A stretch of DNA of 64,000 nucleotides from a virus (taxonomy: Duplodnaviria > Caudoviricetes): the IMG/VR virus record IMGVR_UViG_3300037067_021792; one strand, 5' to 3'. A program made the position numbers and the translations under genes. Below are positions 6,891 to 44,597 of this stretch, piece after piece (the stretch's first letter is position 1; every line of letters begins with the position of its first letter). The notes beneath the pieces were generated by a model. The model had not been told where the DNA came from. It did not search any database and worked only from the letters and a program-made list of their open reading frames with translations.

Positions 6891-7870
6891 TAAATATCGA
6901 TGTTTTGGATAGTTTTGCAGGGAAAACAGCACTGATTACTGGGGGAACGGGACTGATCGGAAGACAGATCACTCGCATACTTATTAATGCCGGTGCTATT
7001 GTCAGAATAGTGTCTCTTGACAAAAATAAAGTTCACGATAAGGCCGAACACATCGTCGGTGATTTATCGGATTTTAATTTTTGTAAATTGATTACTCGGG
7101 ATATTGATTTTGTATTTCATATTGCTGGTGTAAAAGGCTCAGTCAAAGTCACAAAAGAAAAACCAGCAAGTTTTTTTGTTCCTCTTCTTATGATGAACAC
7201 AAACATGCTTGAGTCGGCAAGAATTAATAATGTTAAGAAATTGGTGTATACTAGCTCGGTGGGGGCATATAGTAGCGCAGAAATTTTTGTGGAAGGCGAA
7301 AACGAAGATGGGCCACCGATGGATGAATTTCCTGGTTTGGCCAAACGAGTAGCAGAACAACAAATTCTTGCGTATAAAATTCAATATGGATTAGATAATT
7401 ACGCCATTGTAAGACCGGCCAATATTTATGGCCCTGGAGATAATTTTGATCCTGAAAATGCAATGGTAATTCCAACATTAATGCATCGCATTCTAAATAA
7501 GGAAGACCCCGTAATTATATGGGGAGATGGAAGTGCTATCAGAGATTTCGCATACAGTAAAGATGTAGCAGAGGGGATAGTGCTTGCTCTTTATTACGGA
7601 ACTCGCTCTAAATATGTTAATCTGGGAAGTGGTATTGGATACTCAATCAAAGAGCTAGTGGAGACTTTAAGAAGTTTTATTGATTTCAATTATGTATTTG
7701 ATTCCACAAAACCATCAGGTTTTCCGAAACGCATAATGAATATTAATTTAGCAAGAGCTACGCTGGGGTATAATCCCACAACTACTCTTAAAGAAGGACT
7801 GATGGAAACCTGGGATTGGTTTACCAATAATCCTACTGATTATTGTGATAAGAAGAATTATTTCAATTGA
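6875..7870 (+). CDS. NAD-dependent epimerase/dehydratase (GDP-fucose-synthase-like); start probably 6887
   Basis: TGGTGLIG, RPANIYGPGDNF, WGDGSAIRDF. Confidence 0.85.
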   Translation: METKMINIDVLDSFAGKTALITGGTGLIGRQITRILINAGAIVRIVSLDKNKVHDKAEHIVGDLSDFNFCKLITRDIDFVFHIAGVKGSVKVTKEKPASFFVPLLMMNTNMLESARINNVKKLVYTSSVGAYSSAEIFVEGENEDGPPMDEFPGLAKRVAEQQILAYKIQYGLDNYAIVRPANIYGPGDNFDPENAMVIPTLMHRILNKEDPVIIWGDGSAIRDFAYSKDVAEGIVLALYYGTRSKYVNLGSGIGYSIKELVETLRSFIDFNYVFDSTKPSGFPKRIMNINLARATLGYNPTTTLKEGLMETWDWFTNNPTDYCDKKNYFN

Positions 7871-9179
7871 CACTCCGCAGGGACTAAAGTCCCACAGATT
7901 CTCTAATCACTGAACATTCTTGCCCCGCCATTTCTAGCAAAGTAGAGGATTGTTCTCCTAGAGCGTTTATTCCCGCAAGCCCTACGGTATATCTATTTAA
8001 AATATTTTTGCTAGCATTTAAGTCTCTGTCTTCTACGTCCCCACAACAAGGGCATTTATGTATTCTAACACTTAAATCTTTCCTAACCATCGAACCACAA
8101 GAGCTACATAATTGGCTGGTATTCTTGGGATTAACTAGCTCCACTTTCCCACCGGCACTCTCAGCCTTGTAGGTAGTGTATTGAACTAATTTATTCCAAG
8201 AACAGTCACTTATGCTTTTAGCTAACTTATGGTTTTTAACCATATTAGAAACTGTTAAATCTTCAAAAACTATGGTTTCAAAGCTCTTTGCTAGACAAGA
8301 AGACGCTTTGTGTAAATAATCATCTCTTTGAAATCGTATTTTTCTGTGTAGACGTGCTACTTTGATTCGTTGCTTGTTCCTTCTGTTGCTAGTCTTTGTG
8401 GGTTTTCTTGAAAAAGTTCTCTGTGTTCTTGCGAGTGAATGTTCTGTTTTCTTTAAGAACTTAGGATTCTCTATAGTTTCTCCAGTAGATAAAGCACATA
8501 AAGTTTTAATCCCTACATCTATTCCTACAACAGAACCAGGATTAGAATGTATGATAAATTCTTGCTCTATATCACAAGCAAAGATAACGTACCAATGATC
8601 TACATCTCGTACCACTTGGCACGTTTTTATATCTCCTAAAATTGGCCTACTATAAACCATCTTAACACAACCAATTTTAGAAAGTTCTACTCTTTTATTA
8701 TTTGATGTAATTCTAAAGCCCAACTGAGGATAAGTAAAAGAACGATATCTATTAAAACTCTTAAAGCGTGGAAATCCTGCTTTTTTTGTTCCCTGTTTGC
8801 ATCGATCGAAAAATCTTTTATAAGATTTATCGAGCCTTTTAAGAACGTTTTGTAGCACCTGAGAATAAACTTGAGACTGGTAATGATTCTTATTTTTAGC
8901 TAAGTTGTTCGCCTGCTGGTTATAAGTTAAAGTTTTTTGAGTGTTTTGATAAGCCTCTTTTCTTTGTTCAAGTGCATCGTTATATGTGTGCCTACAAGTA
9001 TTTAGAGTGTTTATAAGTAGTTGCTCTTGTTTTCGAGTGGGATAAAGCCTGTATTTAAAAGATTTCATTGGCATTTCTATTGAATTATACAAGGAAATTG
9101 AGTATAATTCCTCGTAAGAAATTTAAAAGTTCGCTTATATCTACAGGGGTTAAAACCCCGTAGTTTTACGCTCAGGAGT
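7867..9179 (-). mobile_element. IS200/IS605-family tnpB-only (IS1341-like) element
   Basis: Left-end hairpin CTACGGGG-TTTT-AACCCCTGTAG near 9141-9163; right-end hairpin GGGAC-TTTA-GTCCC ending GTGTCAA at 7867; TTAT immediately 5' of the left end; no tnpA. Confidence 0.8.
7884..9092 (-). CDS. tnpB: RNA-guided endonuclease TnpB
   Basis: FKYRLYPT HTH, GIDVG / FEDL / DRDLNASKNI RuvC triad, CSSC..CPCC zinc finger. Confidence 0.93.
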   Translation of the reverse strand: MYNSIEMPMKSFKYRLYPTRKQEQLLINTLNTCRHTYNDALEQRKEAYQNTQKTLTYNQQANNLAKNKNHYQSQVYSQVLQNVLKRLDKSYKRFFDRCKQGTKKAGFPRFKSFNRYRSFTYPQLGFRITSNNKRVELSKIGCVKMVYSRPILGDIKTCQVVRDVDHWYVIFACDIEQEFIIHSNPGSVVGIDVGIKTLCALSTGETIENPKFLKKTEHSLARTQRTFSRKPTKTSNRRNKQRIKVARLHRKIRFQRDDYLHKASSCLAKSFETIVFEDLTVSNMVKNHKLAKSISDCSWNKLVQYTTYKAESAGGKVELVNPKNTSQLCSSCGSMVRKDLSVRIHKCPCCGDVEDRDLNASKNILNRYTVGLAGINALGEQSSTLLEMAGQECSVIRESVGL

Positions 9180-23605: not shown

Positions 23606-24397
23606 ATGTATAAAAATGTGTTTGGTCCGGAACCTAAATATGAATTGTCGGTATCTCTCCAAAACAAATCTGCTCCTTCGTTTATCTGTATCGGTGGACC
23701 TTGTTCAATAGAAAGTTATGAACAGGTTATTCGGATATTTGATAGCATCGATAACAATGTGACCCATTTTCGAGGAGGAGTGTTTAGGGCCGGAACTTAT
23801 CCGGGCAAGAAATGGGGATGGCAATGGGACTTGTTAAAAATGTATCATGAAGAATCATTCAAAAGAGGGAAACCTAATATTGTGGATGTTTTAGATGTGA
23901 GGGACTTGGAAAAAATAGATCCCTACGCCGATGTGTTTCAGGTTGGAACTCGGCAAAGCCAGCATTATGCTCTTTTAAAAGAATTAGGAAAACAACAGAA
24001 GCCAATAGTGCTCAAACGCGGAACCCATCAAACATTAAATGAATTTATGGGGTCCTTAGAATATATATTACAAGGTGATAATTCCAATGTTATATTGTGT
24101 GAAAGGGGCAGCGTGTCATATTTGGATCATTCTAGATGGGAATTGTCCATTTCTATGATTGCCACGTTGAAACATATCACCAAATTCCCCATAATAGTAG
24201 ATAGCAGCCACGGCACAGGTAATCGCCAGATTGTTGGGCAAATGGCATATGCTGGTGTCGCGGCCGGGGCTGATGGAATACTGATTGAGACGCACTATTC
24301 GCCAAGTGACTCAATATCAGATTCGGAACAGTGCGTTTCATTGGATGAATTTAACGAAATATCTACTAACGCAAGGCGGATTAAGGATCTCCTATGA
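23606..24397 (+). CDS. DAHP synthase I-beta / KDO8P synthase family aldolase, atypical substrate loop
   Basis: GPCSIES, QVGTR, LKRG, LCERG, DSSHGTG, IETH, SDSEQ; RAGT in place of KPRT. Confidence 0.85.
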   Translation: MYKNVFGPEPKYELSVSLQNKSAPSFICIGGPCSIESYEQVIRIFDSIDNNVTHFRGGVFRAGTYPGKKWGWQWDLLKMYHEESFKRGKPNIVDVLDVRDLEKIDPYADVFQVGTRQSQHYALLKELGKQQKPIVLKRGTHQTLNEFMGSLEYILQGDNSNVILCERGSVSYLDHSRWELSISMIATLKHITKFPIIVDSSHGTGNRQIVGQMAYAGVAAGADGILIETHYSPSDSISDSEQCVSLDEFNEISTNARRIKDLL

Positions 24398-38798: not shown

Positions 38799-39104
38799 GT
38801 GACAGAAATTGAGAAAATATGTGACATGGGCAAATGCTTATCTATTCTTCCCCTCCAAGATTTAAGTAATAGAGATCTAACATGCTTATATGCTGCACAA
38901 CTAATTAAAAATAATGGAGAGAATATTGATGCTCGTGATATTCTTGATGAACTAGACAGACGAGCGGATGATTGGCAACAGAAAATTTATGAAGCGGAAA
39001 AAAAGCGAGATGAAGCCGTATATGAAAAAGAACATTTAGAAACTATTATTTCTCAGATTGAGGATGCTATGAAATCTGTCGATAAAATTTTGGAGAACGA
39101 ATAA
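38799..39104 (+). CDS. Hypothetical coiled-coil protein
   Basis: AGGAG SD, operonic spacing. Confidence 0.6.
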   Translation: MTEIEKICDMGKCLSILPLQDLSNRDLTCLYAAQLIKNNGENIDARDILDELDRRADDWQQKIYEAEKKRDEAVYEKEHLETIISQIEDAMKSVDKILENE

Positions 39105-39889
39105 TGCAAAGAGTAAAACCAGAAGTATATCTAATTTCCTACCCGCAAATAGATGAGAATGAAGTCAAAAGATGGCTTAAAGATATTGGAGGGGAAAAGG
39201 TTTTAGAACATCTTAGTGGTACTGATGCTGAAAAAGTAATAGAATTAGCAGGCAGAGAGTGTTATAGGTCTTTTGATGTTGGTCTCAACCCTAACGTTAC
39301 CAAGATCAGGGATAATAGTGAAGAATACATAGGGAATTTAATTCAAAGTGAGCACGGAGCAGTCCTTGAACATGCTCAATGTGTGTGGGTATTTGAGAAT
39401 ATTTCTCGCGTTATGACTCACGAGCTGGTCCGGCATAGGGTTGGAGTTGGATATTCTCAAGTAAGCCTACGATATGTAAGGTTGAATGAATTAAAATTCT
39501 GGCTCCCGCCAGAAATTGAGAATAATCCAGAAGCAGTAGAATTGTTCGAAAAAATAATTAAAGATCTCGAACAAGCACAAAATAAATTGGCCGAAATATA
39601 TGGTATTGACGATGAGTCTTTTAAGACAAAGAAGAAACTAACATCTGCTTTTCGTCGTATCGCACCCATAGGTTTAGCAACTGGTATTGTGTTTTCCTGT
39701 AATATGCGGGCATTGCGGTGGATTATTCAATTGAGAACAGGTGTTGCATCAGAAGTTGAAATACGACAAGTATTTAATAAAGTATATGATATTGCATCTC
39801 AGAAATGGCCTTATCTGTTTCAGGATTTTGTTAAAATTGACACTGGCGATGGATTGTTTGAGTGTAAACCAAAACATAGCAAGGTCTAG
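39104..39889 (+). CDS. thyX: Flavin-dependent thymidylate synthase
   Basis: HGAVLEH, ELVRHRVG..SQVSLRY, NMRALR. Confidence 0.95.
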   Translation: MQRVKPEVYLISYPQIDENEVKRWLKDIGGEKVLEHLSGTDAEKVIELAGRECYRSFDVGLNPNVTKIRDNSEEYIGNLIQSEHGAVLEHAQCVWVFENISRVMTHELVRHRVGVGYSQVSLRYVRLNELKFWLPPEIENNPEAVELFEKIIKDLEQAQNKLAEIYGIDDESFKTKKKLTSAFRRIAPIGLATGIVFSCNMRALRWIIQLRTGVASEVEIRQVFNKVYDIASQKWPYLFQDFVKIDTGDGLFECKPKHSKV

Positions 39890-40575: not shown

Positions 40576-40607
40576 TTGAGCCTGGTTGCCTTGAAAGCCA
40601 GGCTCAA
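40576..40607 (+). terminator. 12-bp hairpin, possible terminator, overlapping the topA promoter
   Basis: TTGAGCCTGGTT/AGCCAGGCTCAA; weak U-tail. Confidence 0.45.
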
Positions 40608-40620
40608 CCCTTTATATAAT
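40591..40620 (+). promoter_or_regulatory. Sigma70-type promoter of topA
   Basis: TTGAAA-18nt-TATAAT, GGAG SD. Confidence 0.55.
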
Positions 40621-40659: not shown

Positions 40660-41934
40660 ATGTCCAAAAAAGTAATTATCATTGAAGCACCAAATAAGGT
40701 TAATGGGTATAAGAAATACGCGGGTAAAGAGTATGATGTCCTGGCTTCATATGGGCACTGTGTGGACCTTCCCGAAAAGGGTTTGGGTATAAATATTAAA
40801 AAATCCTTTGAACCCACTTTTGAAGTTAAGGATGATCATCAGGATACAATTAATGCTATTAAATCTAAATGTGCTAAATCTGATTTAGTATTATTAATGA
40901 CAGACCCAGATCGTGAAGGTGAAGCAATATCATTCCACATTTATGAGCAAATTAAAGATATTGCCAAGAAAGTATTACGAGCTTCAACTAGCGAAATTAC
41001 AGCATCGGGTATTAAGAAGGCTATAGAAAATGCCGGAGAACTAGATCAAGGTAAAATTAATGCTTATCTGGCTCGCCGATTACTAGATAGATTAGTGGGT
41101 TATCGAACTAGTTTTTTAACTCAGCAGGCCACGGGCGGTAAATCGGCGGGCAGGGTGCAAAGTGCTGTATTACGGATTTTGGTTGACCGCGAAAATGAAA
41201 TACTTCACTTTATTCCTGAAGAATACTGGATTTTTACGGCTCGGCTCTTGTCGAGTAAAAATGAGCAATATACTGCTTCACTATCAGATAAATTCAAAGT
41301 CCCAAATGAAGCAGAGGCTACAAAAATATACGATGCCGTTATTGGGGGGAATCCAGTTGTTGCCAGTGTTGAATCAAAAGATGTGAAATCTAATCCTTAC
41401 GCTCCGTTCGCCACCATGCCTCTTATTGCTGCTGCGTCCTCGATTTTGGGATGGCAAACTAAAAAGACAATGGATGTGGCTCAGAACCTGTATAGTAACG
41501 GATTAATCAGCTATCATCGTACCGATTCGGTCACAATAGCAGAAGAACCAATGCAGGCAATACGAAATTATATTTCTCACACCTATGGGTCAGATTATAT
41601 TCCGGATAAACCCAACTATTACAGTGCAAAAAAAGGAGCACAGGAAGCCCACGAAGCGTGTAGACCAACGGATATTTCTAACGTTCATCCGTCAGCACCT
41701 GAGGATAACGGGAAACTATACGAAATAATTTGGCGCAGAACAGTAGCTAGCCAAATGACTCCTGGGCTAGATAAAAAATCGAAAGTGATTACTGATATTT
41801 CTGAATATGAATTTGTGTCAAATGGCAATCAAATGTTATTCGACGGGCATCGGCAGGTTTGGCATTATGGGAAATCAGATGATGTTATTTTGCCAAATTT
41901 GTTCGGAGGCGAAAAGTGTAAATTGTTAACCTGA
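40660..41934 (+). CDS. topA: Type IA topoisomerase, N-terminal piece (TOPRIM plus catalytic Tyr)
   Basis: IIEAPNK, TDPDREGEAI, SAGRVQS, ISYHRTDS, QEAHEACRPT. Confidence 0.95.
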   Translation: MSKKVIIIEAPNKVNGYKKYAGKEYDVLASYGHCVDLPEKGLGINIKKSFEPTFEVKDDHQDTINAIKSKCAKSDLVLLMTDPDREGEAISFHIYEQIKDIAKKVLRASTSEITASGIKKAIENAGELDQGKINAYLARRLLDRLVGYRTSFLTQQATGGKSAGRVQSAVLRILVDRENEILHFIPEEYWIFTARLLSSKNEQYTASLSDKFKVPNEAEATKIYDAVIGGNPVVASVESKDVKSNPYAPFATMPLIAAASSILGWQTKKTMDVAQNLYSNGLISYHRTDSVTIAEEPMQAIRNYISHTYGSDYIPDKPNYYSAKKGAQEAHEACRPTDISNVHPSAPEDNGKLYEIIWRRTVASQMTPGLDKKSKVITDISEYEFVSNGNQMLFDGHRQVWHYGKSDDVILPNLFGGEKCKLLT

Positions 41935-41944
41935 AGGAGTTCGA

Positions 41945-43102
41945 ATGATAACCCAATCTGCCACTTATGGCGACGAATATTTAACTACGATAGTAGCCAG
42001 TCAGGCTGCTCATATTTTGGGAACAAATCCCGCAAATTTAATCATGTATTCAGAGGGACAATTTCTTAAAGGTGTTTTTTCTGGCCTATCTTATTGTAAA
42101 ACAACAACCATTGGCACCGATGGATCGATGCCTAATAAACTTCATAACTTTTTGCAATTATGTGAAATGCGTGATAACTCTGACATAAAATTTGTTCGGG
42201 CATGTGTATCATTTGGGCCATATGGGGTTTCGATCTATTATATTTTCATAGAAAAGGGTAAGGCGTTTAAAGCTAAAAGATCTTTAATAAGACTTTCGGC
42301 TCGGCTTAATCCTCCCATTGCGCCTGTATTGAATGACGCACTGTGGGGTGATTTAATCGATAATACTGTTGGATTTTTTAAAAAGGCTCGGGATTATAAG
42401 GCATACGGCGTCAAGACGACTCGGGGAATAATACTTTCTGGTCCACCCGGGAATGGGAAATCAATGTTTTGTGATTATCTTATACGATGCTTTAATAATC
42501 GCGGAATTGATGTTATGGTGTATACATCGAGAGATCTCATTAAAACAATAATAGATAATAGAAATCCGTTCGATTTCAGGGTGATTTTTGTAGATGACGT
42601 TGATATAGACTTCTTTTCTAGGAAATCTAATTCCGAGATGGCATGCAGCCTGCTTTCTTGTCTAGATGGGTGCAAAAAAACATCTTCTGTTGCACTGAGA
42701 ATATTTTCTACTAATGAATCTATCAAAAATATAGATCCGGCTTTTCTCAGACCAGGGCGAGTCGATAAGTGTTTTTCTTTTGACAATCCTAACACTGAAT
42801 TAAGGAAGAAATTTATCAATACTTGGAATCAGAATATTTTGGATGGTATTGATGTGCCCGAATTTATTAATCGTTCTGAGGGATTTAGCTTTGCAGACAT
42901 GGATCTTGTTAAGCAGGTTTTAGTTTCTAACTTTCTTTCATCCGGTAAGTGGGATATGTCAGTAGCAATCGGAGAGTTCGAGAGTAGATGTAGTGTAGAA
43001 AGTCACAGAAAAACTGGTATAGGATTTGATAATCTGAAATCTGCAGAAGAATCAATACCAAAACCGACAGGACCAAAACCAATAAGAGGAATGCATGAGT
43101 GA
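41945..43102 (+). CDS. Classical AAA+ ATPase lying inside topA
   Basis: GPPGNGKS Walker A, IFVDDVD Walker B, STN..IDPAFLRPGRVD SRH; AAGGAG SD. Confidence 0.92.
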   Translation: MITQSATYGDEYLTTIVASQAAHILGTNPANLIMYSEGQFLKGVFSGLSYCKTTTIGTDGSMPNKLHNFLQLCEMRDNSDIKFVRACVSFGPYGVSIYYIFIEKGKAFKAKRSLIRLSARLNPPIAPVLNDALWGDLIDNTVGFFKKARDYKAYGVKTTRGIILSGPPGNGKSMFCDYLIRCFNNRGIDVMVYTSRDLIKTIIDNRNPFDFRVIFVDDVDIDFFSRKSNSEMACSLLSCLDGCKKTSSVALRIFSTNESIKNIDPAFLRPGRVDKCFSFDNPNTELRKKFINTWNQNILDGIDVPEFINRSEGFSFADMDLVKQVLVSNFLSSGKWDMSVAIGEFESRCSVESHRKTGIGFDNLKSAEESIPKPTGPKPIRGMHE

Positions 43103-43883
43103 TATTATAAATAAGCATCCGGGATTAACTGCCGAGCGAAAAGAAACCCAGCCCCCGCCAAGATATTCAGACGCGAGCTTGGCAAAGATTTGCGAGAAAG
43201 AGCAGATAACTCGTCCTGCGACTTTTAAAGGTGTAATTGACACCTTAAAAGCTAGGAAGTATATAACCCAAGAGAAAAAATCTTTCAACCCTACCGAGGT
43301 AGGGATGAAGGTTGTCGAGTTTCTTAGACAAGCAGATATGTGTTTTATTGATATAAAGTTCACGGCTAAAATGGAAGAGCTGCTAGATGATGTACAAAGT
43401 GGTACCAAAGATAAGATAGAAGTCCTCGATAAATTTTGGGAACGGTTGCAGAAAGACATCGCCAATGGTAAGCAAATTAAATCTGCAGGTGAAGTATCTG
43501 AATATAAGTGTCCTAAATGCGGAGGATCATTGCTTAAGAAATTTAGCAAATTCGGTCCATTTTTTGCTTGTCAGAACTCCAAAAAACTGACCCAGAAGCA
43601 GATAGATGCAGGGGAAGAATCTCCGTGTGACTACATTGCTAGTGTCGGGAAAAGTGGAGAACCACTTACTAAACAAAAAGTTGAAAAAGAGTACGCGTCA
43701 TTTCCCTGTAAGAAATGCGGAGAAAAGATGGTTAAAAGACACTCGAAATTTGGGTCGTTTTTCGGATGTGAAAAATTTCCGTCCTGTAAAACTACCGCAG
43801 ATTTAGAGGGTAATTTTAAGGAATCATCTGGTAAGAAATTCAAGAAGTATAAGAAATACAAAAAGAAAGCAGATGACGAGTGA
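43095..43883 (+). CDS. topA: Type IA topoisomerase, C-terminal piece (rest of core plus zinc ribbons)
   Basis: TQPPPRYSDASL, RPAT, PTEVG, FTAKMEELLD, two C4 ribbons, Lys-rich tail. Confidence 0.93.
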   Translation: MSDIINKHPGLTAERKETQPPPRYSDASLAKICEKEQITRPATFKGVIDTLKARKYITQEKKSFNPTEVGMKVVEFLRQADMCFIDIKFTAKMEELLDDVQSGTKDKIEVLDKFWERLQKDIANGKQIKSAGEVSEYKCPKCGGSLLKKFSKFGPFFACQNSKKLTQKQIDAGEESPCDYIASVGKSGEPLTKQKVEKEYASFPCKKCGEKMVKRHSKFGSFFGCEKFPSCKTTADLEGNFKESSGKKFKKYKKYKKKADDE

Positions 43884-44077
43884 CAGCCAAAGAACAAAGC
43901 AAAGAGTTTTTAAAAAAAGTCGAAGGATGCTGCGGTATTTGGCTGCTTCCTGAACAATGGAAAACGGTTCTATTGGCGCTACATTTTGCAGCAGAGGAAG
44001 ACTTGTCGAGTATAATTAGACAGCAGATAGATAGTATATACCATGATAATATGCCCAACCCTACAAGATGTGATTAA
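43880..44077 (+). CDS. Small hypothetical protein
   Basis: GTGA overlap with upstream stop. Confidence 0.45.
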   Translation: MTAKEQSKEFLKKVEGCCGIWLLPEQWKTVLLALHFAAEEDLSSIIRQQIDSIYHDNMPNPTRCD

Positions 44078-44597
44078 ATTCGCCACCAAACGGCACAGAC
44101 ATATTAATGCGCAATCAGGTGGAGTTACTGCATGGAAAATGTTGCGCAAGCCAGATGGATCTCGTATACCGTTCGAAGAGGTTAGAAGTTTTCGCATATT
44201 TGATTGGGTAGCCGATGAAGCAGACAAGCTTCTTACTATTGACTCTATAGCCGTTGGCACGGCCTTTAAGGGCAACAAAAGGATATCTCAGATAAATAAG
44301 CTGTATTTATATGATTTGTCGGTCATAAATATATACGACCACTCTGCTGAATTTTTTAGTAAGAGCAGTATTGATCTGTGGTATATGGAAAACGATAACT
44401 CATTTGTTTCTGTCTCCTCTATAGAACAACTATCAATGAATAATTGGGTTAAGGATACTCCTGATATAGTACGAGCAAGATGGGTAGCACCAGATGAAGA
44501 TTTCGATAGAATTTCTGAAGAGCTTTGTATCGGACGAAAGGTTGTTGAAGTTGTAGACGAGTCTAGAAATTTTGATATGGATTTTGAAGATTTATAG
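44043..44597 (+). CDS. Hypothetical protein
   Basis: Intact operonic ORF. Confidence 0.6.
   Translation: MIICPTLQDVIKFATKRHRHINAQSGGVTAWKMLRKPDGSRIPFEEVRSFRIFDWVADEADKLLTIDSIAVGTAFKGNKRISQINKLYLYDLSVINIYDHSAEFFSKSSIDLWYMENDNSFVSVSSIEQLSMNNWVKDTPDIVRARWVAPDEDFDRISEELCIGRKVVEVVDESRNFDMDFEDL

What the first reader, a model, noticed from the sequence alone, without database searches (positions are those of the whole stretch)
40660..43883. Type IA topoisomerase split cleanly in two by an AAA+ ATPase gene
Seen: TopA-N ends ...LPNLFGGEKCKLLT-stop and TopA-C resumes (MSDIINKHPG)LTAERKETQPPPRYS. Joining T to L gives the same G-to-TQPP spacing I recall for E. coli and B. subtilis TopA, so no residues appear lost. 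Both halves keep their motifs. All three genes have SD sequences, and TopA-C overlaps the ATPase stop. The break lies in the domain II arch. Known: phage genes-in-pieces (T4 genes 39/60, Aeh1 nrdA) arose from homing-endonuclease insertions, and reverse gyrase couples a type IA core to an SF2 ATPase. A classical AAA protein with an SRH fits neither case. Inference: a heterodimeric topoisomerase, possibly assembled or driven by the nested ATPase.
Basis: partly seen in the sequence, partly recalled or inferred. Interest (0 to 1): 0.85.

Follow-up and report, generated by a model that had tools for sequence, protein, structure and literature searches.

The report
Endonuclease-split phage topoisomerase, ATPase in gap
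A giant phage's DNA-relaxing enzyme is encoded in two pieces at a spot where related phages carry a selfish DNA-cutting gene, and here that gap holds a protein-remodelling ATPase gene instead, most likely a passenger and not a required part of the enzyme.

Summary
TopN (40660-41934), an AAA ATPase gene (41945-43102) and TopC (43095-43883) are three tightly packed ORFs. The two Top pieces cover one type IA topoisomerase with no residue lost.

The reading changes. About 8% of the closest relatives are broken at the same residue. There the gap holds a LAGLIDADG homing-endonuclease gene (four loci), its decayed remnant, a small unknown ORF, or a DAHP-synthase-like gene. Split alleles are scattered among intact ones on the tree. 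All of them share a derived junction: a leader ending in HPG, then LVA, kept at protein level. In one split pair, both halves are under strong purifying selection (dN/dS 0.04-0.10) although the endonuclease has decayed in one member.

So this is a homing-endonuclease "genes-in-pieces" topoisomerase that works as two subunits, and the AAA gene is a later occupant of the endonuclease slot. Its closer relatives stand alone, some next to ClpP or SprT-like protease genes, and carry a C-terminal [ILV]GF tail.

One caveat: in another huge-phage clade a distant AAA of the same PHROG directly follows an intact topoisomerase gene. A functional link is therefore not excluded (about 0.2). Read-level checks were not possible. 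The scan's notes record split-intein phage topoisomerase II genes on other DNA, not this case.

The parts
40576..40620 (+). Terminator-like hairpin (40576-40607) overlapping a promoter-like TTGAAA-18-TATAAT (40591-40620) upstream of TopN. No comparable signal lies inside the three-gene block, so co-transcription is likely.
   Evidence: Consensus scan only; sequence.
40660..41934 (+). TopN, 424 aa: Toprim domain plus the first three quarters of the type IA core. Carries E9 (40684-40686), DPDREGE (40903-40923) and the catalytic Tyr285 in ISYHRTDS (41506-41529). Ends GEKCKLLT-stop.
41935..41944 (+). 10-nt spacer carrying the AGGAG ribosome-binding site of the AAA gene. This is the 5' edge of the slot.
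41945..43102 (+). AAA ATPase, 385 aa: folded N-domain (1-125), Walker A GPPGNGKS (42440-42463), Walker B IFVDDVD (42584-42604), sensor 1 TNE (42710-42718), SRH AFLRPGRVD (42740-42766), and a disordered C-terminal tail.
43016..43027 (+). GIGF in the disordered tail of the AAA protein. [ILVA]GF is invariant across the 15-member family alignment. It is a candidate peptidase (ClpP) docking peptide.
   Evidence: The docking role is inference.
43095..43124 (+). Start codon and 10-residue leader MSDIINKHPG of TopC, overlapping the AAA stop by 8 nt. The leader end (K/T/N)(H/F)PG is shared by all split alleles and kept at protein level despite synonymous change.
43125..43883 (+). Body of TopC: resumes LTAERKETQPPPRYS, then the rest of the type IA core (profile 311-410) and two C4 zinc ribbons (CPKC at 43509-43520, CKKC at 43707-43718).

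Best explanation
The gene for a TopA-like type IA topoisomerase of an uncultured ~270-kb phage was cut in two by a free-standing LAGLIDADG homing-endonuclease cassette. The cassette inserted between two codons inside a conserved beta-strand just upstream of the TQPPPRY motif. It supplied the stop codon for the N-half, and a new start codon plus a short leader (ending HPG) for the C-half. The two polypeptides (424 and 262 aa) are made separately from one transcript, with TopC translation coupled to the ORF in the slot. They reassemble without splicing into a working two-subunit enzyme, probably by strand complementation at the broken beta-strand, helped by the conserved leader. In this lineage the endonuclease gene has been replaced by an AAA ATPase gene. 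That gene now sits in the slot as cargo. It is a Bcs1/YjoB-like classical AAA protein remodeller whose relatives lie beside ClpP or SprT-like protease genes and end in an [ILV]GF tail, so it probably works with a peptidase and is not required for the topoisomerase. Shown here: the split, the shared site, the endonucleases in relatives, the scattered phylogeny, the shared junction, and selection on split halves. Inferred: non-covalent reassembly, the role of the leader, the replacement event, and the AAA's biochemical role.
For: Same break in at least ten of the 120 closest TopN relatives. Slot contents by locus: LAGLIDADG_2 in L001, L002, L003 and L012; decayed LAGLIDADG fragments with stops in L013; an unknown 126-aa ORF in L006/L007; DAHP_synth_1 in L005. 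Split alleles are scattered on the TopN tree, with at least 11 changes forced and each next to an intact allele. Split C-halves track the same lineages as their N-halves, so only the slot moves. All split C-halves share the leader ...HPG plus LVA/LTA where intact genes read L(L/E)K, with free synonymous variation. The window's MSDIINKHPG resembles L002's MSKIINTHPG. dN/dS between L003 and L013 is 0.098 for TopN and 0.039 for TopC, although the endonuclease is dead in L013. The window's halves keep 98/98 invariant residues. No intron: Rfam found nothing, the slot has no non-coding room, and the L013 remnant folds worse than shuffles. No intein: only 0-2 extra residues on the N-half, a 7-11 residue leader, and Leu at +1. 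AAA family: 16 loci without a topoisomerase. ClpP lies directly upstream in L009/L010 and 2.2 kb away in L025, and an SprT-like gene lies upstream in L011. ClpP is present in 4 of 5 phage contigs tested. The fold is nearest to YjoB and Bcs1. Precedents: the invading element creates the stop and the start (PMC2677866), and element-derived tails are essential in the split Aeh1 NrdA (PMC3045599).
Against: No endonuclease remnant is left in the window, so replacement is inferred from the shared site and junction only. The AAA is translationally coupled to TopC. An 81%-identical AAA (P0002) sits on a second contig with the same spacing, so the nested layout is maintained, although that contig's flanking ORFs could not be read. 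A distant AAA of the same top PHROG directly follows an intact topoisomerase gene in L095-L098 and L109, so topoisomerase-AAA adjacency arose twice. The rest of the 270-kb genome could not be searched for ClpP or a second topoisomerase. The AAA's Walker B is DD and its pore-loop-1 position lacks an aromatic residue, so unfoldase activity is uncertain. No reads, RNA or protein data were available.
Confidence: 0.65

Rival explanations
1. The AAA ATPase is a dedicated partner of the topoisomerase. It either assembles the two halves or remodels or extracts the enzyme, for example from trapped covalent DNA complexes. Its position between the halves ensures co-expression.
For: Tight translational coupling in the window. 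A second contig has an 81%-identical AAA with the same spacing. Independently, an AAA of the same top PHROG (phrog_7485) overlaps the end of an intact topoisomerase gene in L095/L096, L097, L098 and L109. The nearest solved fold, YjoB, is described as a substrate-specific chaperone (PMC9565160). Relatives lie beside SprT-like and ClpP protease genes.
Against: At least seven other split alleles have no AAA. One with only a dead endonuclease remnant still keeps both halves under dN/dS below 0.1. Sixteen loci of the AAA's closer family, and three more distant huge-phage loci, have no topoisomerase within 4-5 kb. The L095-L109 pairing lies in a fully syntenic module, so it counts as one event. Both gene types sit in the nucleotide-metabolism module (ThyX nearby in the window, L003 and L009), which raises the chance of adjacency.
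Confidence: 0.2
2. The interruption is removed after transcription or translation, by a group I or II intron, a split intein, or ribosomal bypass, so that a single-chain topoisomerase is made.
For: Jumbo phages can carry many small group I introns that fragment essential genes (PMC12880540). LAGLIDADG genes are typical intron and intein passengers.
Against: No Rfam intron match at permissive thresholds in the window or in seven related loci. Only 10 nt of non-coding sequence lies in the window's slot. Four unrelated inserts share the same junction. The L013 remnant has no excess structure (z = +2.6). No intein blocks: there is no N-intein, and Leu sits at +1. The leader codons are conserved as protein, with their own start codon and ribosome-binding site, in every allele.
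Confidence: 0.03
3. Artefact or dead gene: a chimeric assembly, or a topoisomerase pseudogene disrupted by an unrelated insertion and on its way to loss.
For: Metagenomic origin. No read-level check was possible.
Against: All 98 invariant residues are kept. The junctions are exact, with ribosome-binding sites. The identical proteins are on record from JGI, ENA and Logan assemblies, on two contigs. A diverged second contig shows the same spacing. The same break recurs in many independent samples.
Confidence: 0.02

Closest known systems
Genes-in-pieces made by free-standing homing endonucleases: Aeromonas phage Aeh1 nrdA-a/mobE/nrdA-b (Crona et al. 2011, PMC3045599). T4 topoisomerase II genes 39/60 with mobA is cited from my own knowledge.
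   Same: An essential DNA-metabolism gene is cut into two collinear genes by an inserted endonuclease cassette. The cassette gives the upstream stop and the downstream start, and its ORF overlaps the downstream half. The short tail or leader comes from the element, and no splicing occurs. In relatives of this window the endonuclease is still present at the site.
   Different: The host gene is a type IA topoisomerase, and I found no paper describing this. The endonuclease family is LAGLIDADG, not HNH. The break lies inside a beta-strand. The slot shows turnover (intact endonuclease, dead remnant, extra ORFs, DAHP-synthase-like gene), and in the window it holds an AAA ATPase gene and no endonuclease.
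Fractured genes: split intein halves flanking a free-standing endonuclease gene (Dassa et al. 2009, PMC2677866)
   Same: A phage DNA-enzyme gene is broken in place, with a selfish gene between the halves. The element creates the stop and the start, and the coding sequences overlap at the 3' junction.
   Different: There are no intein halves here: 0-2 extra residues after the N-half, a 7-11 residue leader, and no Cys/Ser/Thr at +1. The halves cannot be ligated by protein splicing.
Two-subunit reverse gyrase of Methanopyrus kandleri (topoisomerase module split between subunits; reviewed in PMC4117796)
   Same: A type IA topoisomerase core works as a heterodimer of two separately made chains.
   Different: That enzyme is archaeal, with a helicase module. 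I know of no mobile element or gene between its halves. The position of its break was not compared here.
Bcs1 and B. subtilis YjoB, classical-clade AAA proteins with an N-terminal substrate domain (PDB 9gs2, 6sh3, 7w42; PMC9565160)
   Same: Best structural matches to the AAA model over its full length. They share the layout of N-domain, one AAA module and a lid.
   Different: Only 14-18% identity. The phage family has an invariant C-terminal [ILVA]GF tail and a DD Walker B. No membrane anchor was seen.
ClpX/ClpA-ClpP AAA+ proteases, which dock through an IGF/LGF tripeptide (established knowledge, cited from memory)
   Same: The family carries an [ILV]GF tripeptide on a flexible segment. ClpP genes lie directly upstream or nearby in two related lineages, and ClpP is present in 4 of 5 contigs tested.
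   Different: The motif is in a C-terminal tail, not a loop. The ATPase belongs to the classical AAA clade, not the HCLR clade. The pore loop lacks an aromatic residue in the window protein. No ClpP gene lies in the 64-kb window.

Membership tests
Type IA DNA topoisomerase (TopA-like) | Toprim domain with conserved acidic residues (Glu, DxD) | tested here: met
   PF01751, E 2e-16. E9 and DPDREGE are present.
Type IA DNA topoisomerase (TopA-like) | Catalytic tyrosine in the (S/T)Y.RTDS motif, and complete core domains | tested here: met
   ISYHRTDS at residues 283-290. Topoisom_bac profile 2-307 in TopN plus 311-410 in TopC. 98 of 98 invariant residues kept.
Type IA DNA topoisomerase (TopA-like) | Core encoded as one polypeptide | tested here: not met
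   Stop at 41932-41934 and a new start at 43095. Intact relatives are 655-690 aa.
Homing-endonuclease genes-in-pieces | Collinear halves in the same orientation, break at one exact point, no residues lost | tested here: met
   Alignment to intact relatives.
Homing-endonuclease genes-in-pieces | Free-standing homing-endonuclease gene between the halves | tested here: not met
   The window has no LAGLIDADG similarity. The feature is met at the same site in relatives L001, L002, L003 and L012, with a decayed copy in L013.
Homing-endonuclease genes-in-pieces | Patchy distribution among close relatives, as expected for a mobile insert | tested here: met
   At least 11 changes forced on the TopN tree. 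The C-halves follow the same lineages as their N-halves.
Homing-endonuclease genes-in-pieces | Both halves remain functional | tested here: met
   dN/dS of 0.098 and 0.039 in the split pair L003/L013. No decay in the window's halves. Enzyme activity itself cannot be tested with these tools.
Homing-endonuclease genes-in-pieces | The endonuclease cleaves the uninterrupted allele at the insertion site | not testable with these tools
   Needs a cleavage assay with the L001 or L003 LAGLIDADG proteins on an intact allele.
Fractured gene (split intein plus endonuclease) | N-intein after the N-half, C-intein before the C-half, and a nucleophile at +1 | tested here: not met
   0-2 residues after the break on the N-half, a 7-11 residue leader, and Leu as the +1 residue.
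Group I or II intron with an endonuclease ORF | Ribozyme core flanking or enclosing the ORF | tested here: not met
   No Rfam hit at E up to 5 in the window or in seven related loci. Only 10 nt are non-coding. The L013 remnant gives z = +2.56.
Classical AAA ATPase (PF00004) | Walker A, Walker B, sensor 1, and a second region of homology with arginine fingers | tested here: met
   GPPGNGKS, IFVDDVD (DD in place of DE), TNE and AFLRPGRVD, all invariant in the family. The fold matches YjoB, Bcs1, FtsH and Rpt.
ClpP-partner unfoldase (ClpX/ClpA-like function) | Flexible [ILV]GF docking tripeptide | tested here: inconclusive
   GIGF at 358-361 lies in a disordered tail and is invariant in the 15-member alignment. 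It is absent in the L015-L022 subfamily. Binding was not tested.
ClpP-partner unfoldase (ClpX/ClpA-like function) | A ClpP gene as partner, and an aromatic pore loop | tested here: inconclusive
   ClpP is adjacent in L009/L010 and near in L025, and present in 4 of 5 contigs. There is none in the 64-kb window. The pore-loop position reads KTIID in the window and AFA, AYA or SFG in relatives.

The most novel reading that the evidence does not exclude
The AAA ATPase is a topoisomerase-directed remodeller. Phage type IA topoisomerases have twice recruited a Bcs1/YjoB-like AAA gene, once nested in the split gene here and once coupled downstream of the intact gene in L095-L109. The AAA would extract or unfold trapped topoisomerase-DNA covalent complexes, or load the two halves, and hand them to ClpP or SprT-like proteases. 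That would be a phage counterpart of the Cdc48/p97-SPRTN pathway for DNA-protein crosslinks. A second, compatible novelty is that the endonuclease slot in an essential gene serves as a protected landing pad where cargo genes hitch-hike on homing.
Probability: 0.12. Interest if true: 0.85.

Novelty: new variant of a known kind. Interest (0 to 1): 0.55.

Why it matters
It adds a type IA topoisomerase to the short list of essential enzymes shown to tolerate being cut in two by a homing endonuclease. Here the cut lies inside a beta-strand. The related alleles also show the whole life cycle at one site: invasion, spread among diverged alleles, decay of the endonuclease, and reuse of the gap by unrelated genes. 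That makes the locus a natural experiment on how split enzymes reassemble, including a conserved element-derived leader that can be deleted and tested. It may also show how selfish-element scars become places where phages park new genes. If the minority reading is right, it would point to an ATP-driven quality-control partner for topoisomerases in phages.

Tried and rejected
- Near and distant DNA search of deposited phages with the whole locus found no match.
- IMG/VR scans with TopN or the AAA as single proteins found nothing.
- No whole genome is held for the window. I therefore could not look for ClpP, a second topoisomerase or other AAA copies in the remaining ~206 kb.
- DNA of the 81%-identical AAA contig (P0002) was not retrievable. 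There is therefore no dN/dS for the AAA, and the identity of its flanking ORFs is not confirmed. Cluster look-up gave no sample names.
- Endonuclease remnants in the window, and similarity between the AAA N-terminus or tail and the LAGLIDADG proteins: none found.
- DNA homology upstream of the TopC leader between the window and other alleles: none beyond the leader codons.
- Intron, intein and pseudogene readings were rejected as set out above.
- The idea that the mobile unit carries the whole C-half was rejected by the C-half tree.
- The IMG/VR census of the slot was uninformative: only eight relatives were found, all intact.
Full report
**1. What is there**

The window carries three abutting + strand ORFs:
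- TopN, 40660-41934, 424 aa.
- An AAA ATPase, 41945-43102, 385 aa.
- TopC, 43095-43883, 262 aa.

Pfam puts Toprim and Topoisom_bac profile positions 2-307 of 411 in TopN. It puts positions 311-410 plus two topoisomerase zinc ribbons in TopC, and PF00004 in the middle ORF. Each ORF has a ribosome-binding site. TopC overlaps the AAA stop by 8 nt. The only promoter-like and terminator-like signals of note lie upstream of TopN.

The source is a 270,634-bp contig that earlier notes of this scan describe as an uncultured giant phage. No whole genome is held for it.

**2. The break is exact and the enzyme is not decaying**

Against intact relatives of 655-690 aa, GEKCKLLT|LTAERKET aligns with GEKCTLKS|LLKEQKFT with no residue lost. 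The two halves together keep all 98 residues that are invariant in 38 intact relatives. They also keep 56 of 59 near-invariant residues, against a median of 57 for the intact proteins themselves. These include Toprim E9, the DPDREGE motif and the catalytic Tyr285.

The break aligns to about E463/L464 of E. coli TopA, a few residues before TKPPARFSEASL. In an AlphaFold model of the intact relative P0038 (pLDDT 88) it falls between S424 and L425, inside a long beta-strand at 421-431, not in a loop. From memory of the E. coli structure, this is the last strand of domain II before the chain re-enters domain IV.

**3. The same break recurs, and in relatives the gap holds a homing endonuclease**

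Among the 120 closest TopN relatives (45-64% identity), most are intact. Ten, counting the window's own TopN, end at this residue. The genomic contexts are:

| Locus | Slot content |
|---|---|
| L001, L003, L012 | TopN, a LAGLIDADG_2 gene, TopC |
| L002 | A helix-turn-helix ORF, LAGLIDADG_2 and two more ORFs before TopC |
| L013 (close relative of L003) | Endonuclease reduced to fragments with stops in a 229-nt gap; both Top halves stay open |
| L006/L007 | An unknown 126-aa ORF |
| L005 | A DAHP-synthase-family gene starts on the TopN stop codon; the contig then ends |

**4. The insert is mobile and the junction is shared**

On a tree of the TopN region, the short forms are scattered. At least 11 changes are forced by well-supported branches, and each split allele sits next to an intact one. 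A tree of the C-half region places each split C-half in the same lineage as its N-half. So only the slot cassette moves, not the flanking gene.

Every split C-half begins with a short leader ending (K/T/N)(H/F)PG, followed by L(V/T)AE(Q/R)K. Intact genes read L(L/E)KEQK at that point. The codons vary freely at third positions while the residues stay, so the leader is translated and constrained as protein. The window's MSDIINKHPG is closest to L002's MSKIINTHPG, an allele that still carries the endonuclease. No DNA similarity extends further into the slot.

This matches the published model in which the invading element supplies the upstream stop and the downstream start and overlaps the downstream half (PMC2677866). 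It also recalls the element-derived tails that are essential for the split Aeh1 ribonucleotide reductase (PMC3045599).

**5. The split enzyme is functional**

Between L003 (live endonuclease) and L013 (dead endonuclease), dN/dS is 0.098 for TopN (dS 0.36) and 0.039 for TopC (dS 0.79). The two-piece form is therefore maintained by selection and outlives its endonuclease.

**6. Splicing is unlikely**

Rfam scans at permissive thresholds found no group I or II intron in the window or in seven related loci. The window's slot has only 10 non-coding bases. Four unrelated inserts share the junction. The L013 remnant folds worse than shuffled sequence (z = +2.56).

There is no room for intein halves, and the +1 residue is Leu. 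So the 'fractured gene' layout that this scan has reported for phage topoisomerase II genes on other DNA does not apply here.

**7. What the AAA gene is**

Its family (alignment A1, 15 members) has invariant GPPGNGK, a DD Walker B, sensor 1 TNE, AFLRPGRxD, and a C-terminal [ILVA]GF. The AlphaFold model (pLDDT 80) shows a folded N-domain, one AAA module, a lid, and a disordered tail carrying GIGF. The nearest solved folds are B. subtilis YjoB and mitochondrial Bcs1, followed by proteasomal, FtsH and p97 ATPases.

Sixteen loci of the family have no topoisomerase nearby. Their contexts are as follows:
- In L009/L010 the gene overlaps an upstream ClpP-family gene.
- In L025 a ClpP gene lies 2.2 kb away.
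- In L011 the gene abuts an SprT-like gene.
- A subfamily without the GF tail has a conserved 155-aa downstream partner instead.
- Four of five phage contigs tested encode ClpP; the exception belongs to the GF-less subfamily.

I read this as a protein remodeller that probably docks on a peptidase. The evidence is thin: the sample is small, ClpP-like prohead proteases are common in large phages, and the pore-loop position is not aromatic in the window protein.

**8. Why I call the AAA a secondary occupant, and the caveat**

Three points support the reading that the AAA gene took over a pre-existing endonuclease slot and is not needed by the enzyme:
- The window shares the exact site and the derived junction with endonuclease-bearing alleles.
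- Other split alleles work without any AAA gene.
- The AAA family normally lives elsewhere, often in the same nucleotide-metabolism module (ThyX lies nearby in the window, in L003 and in L009).

Against this:
- The layout is kept in a second contig whose AAA is 81% identical and has the same 11-nt and 8-nt spacings. Its flanks could not be read.
- In a separate clade of huge phages (L095/L096, L097, L098, L109), a distant AAA directly overlaps the end of an intact topoisomerase gene. It is 25% identical to the window's AAA, shares its top PHROG (phrog_7485), and has an aligned C-terminal IG(I/L) tail. That module is fully syntenic, so it counts as one event.
- More distant homologs in other huge phages have no topoisomerase nearby.

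Two independent adjacencies are more than I would expect by chance across a whole genome, but less surprising within one module. I give a functional link about 0.2.

**9. Comparison and novelty**

This is a homing-endonuclease genes-in-pieces case. The kind is known from Aeh1 nrdA and, from my own knowledge, from T4 genes 39/60. The new features are:
- the host enzyme is a type IA topoisomerase;
- the endonuclease is a free-standing LAGLIDADG;
- the break lies inside a beta-strand;
- there is a conserved element-derived leader;
- the slot's cargo turns over, and in this phage it is an AAA ATPase.

My literature searches found no description of it. A two-subunit type IA core is known from Methanopyrus kandleri reverse gyrase (PMC4117796). 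I rate it a new variant of a known kind, of moderate interest.

**10. Limits**

- There were no reads, RNA or protein data.
- Only 64 kb of the genome was accessible.
- The trees are FastTree trees.
- The E. coli domain boundaries and the ClpX IGF precedent are cited from memory.

Noticed in passing
L003:60-1988: The ThyX gene of a related phage encodes a 642-aa product with Thy1 - LAGLIDADG_3 - Thy1, so it probably carries an intein. The window's own ThyX (39104-39889) is uninterrupted.
   Followed up: no
L005:3792-4565: A DAHP-synthase-family (KdsA/NeuB-like) gene starts on the TopN stop codon at the same break point, as a metabolic cargo gene in the endonuclease slot. It is 24% identical to the window's re-tooled DAHP synthase at 23678-24385. 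The contig ends before any TopC.
   Followed up: partly
L015:4710-5177, L016, L017-L020, L022 (same relative position): The AAA subfamily that lacks the C-terminal GF tail always has an overlapping, conserved 155-aa downstream ORF. That ORF has a weak, sub-threshold match to potato inhibitor I (a serine-protease inhibitor family).
   Followed up: partly
L011:4510-6080: An SprT-like metalloprotease gene abuts an AAA gene of this family. The pairing recalls the p97/Cdc48-SPRTN system that removes DNA-protein crosslinks.
   Followed up: no
L003 vs L013 (TopN and TopC): Synonymous divergence differs twofold across the slot: dS is 0.36 upstream and 0.79 downstream. That would fit recombination or gene conversion ending at the insertion site.
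   Followed up: no
Proteins P0087 and P0143: Close intact relatives of this phage topoisomerase (45-53% identity) lie on ~550-kb contigs deposited as Asgard archaeon MAGs. They may be mis-binned huge-phage contigs, or real transfers.
   Followed up: no
L001:1326-2258 and 7242-8108; L012:2416-3261: HNH_3 endonuclease genes flank the split topoisomerase in relatives, so this module is a hot spot for several selfish nuclease families.
   Followed up: no
window 43880-44597: Two small ORFs (65 and 184 aa) directly after TopC have no family assignment. The first overlaps the TopC stop.
   Followed up: no
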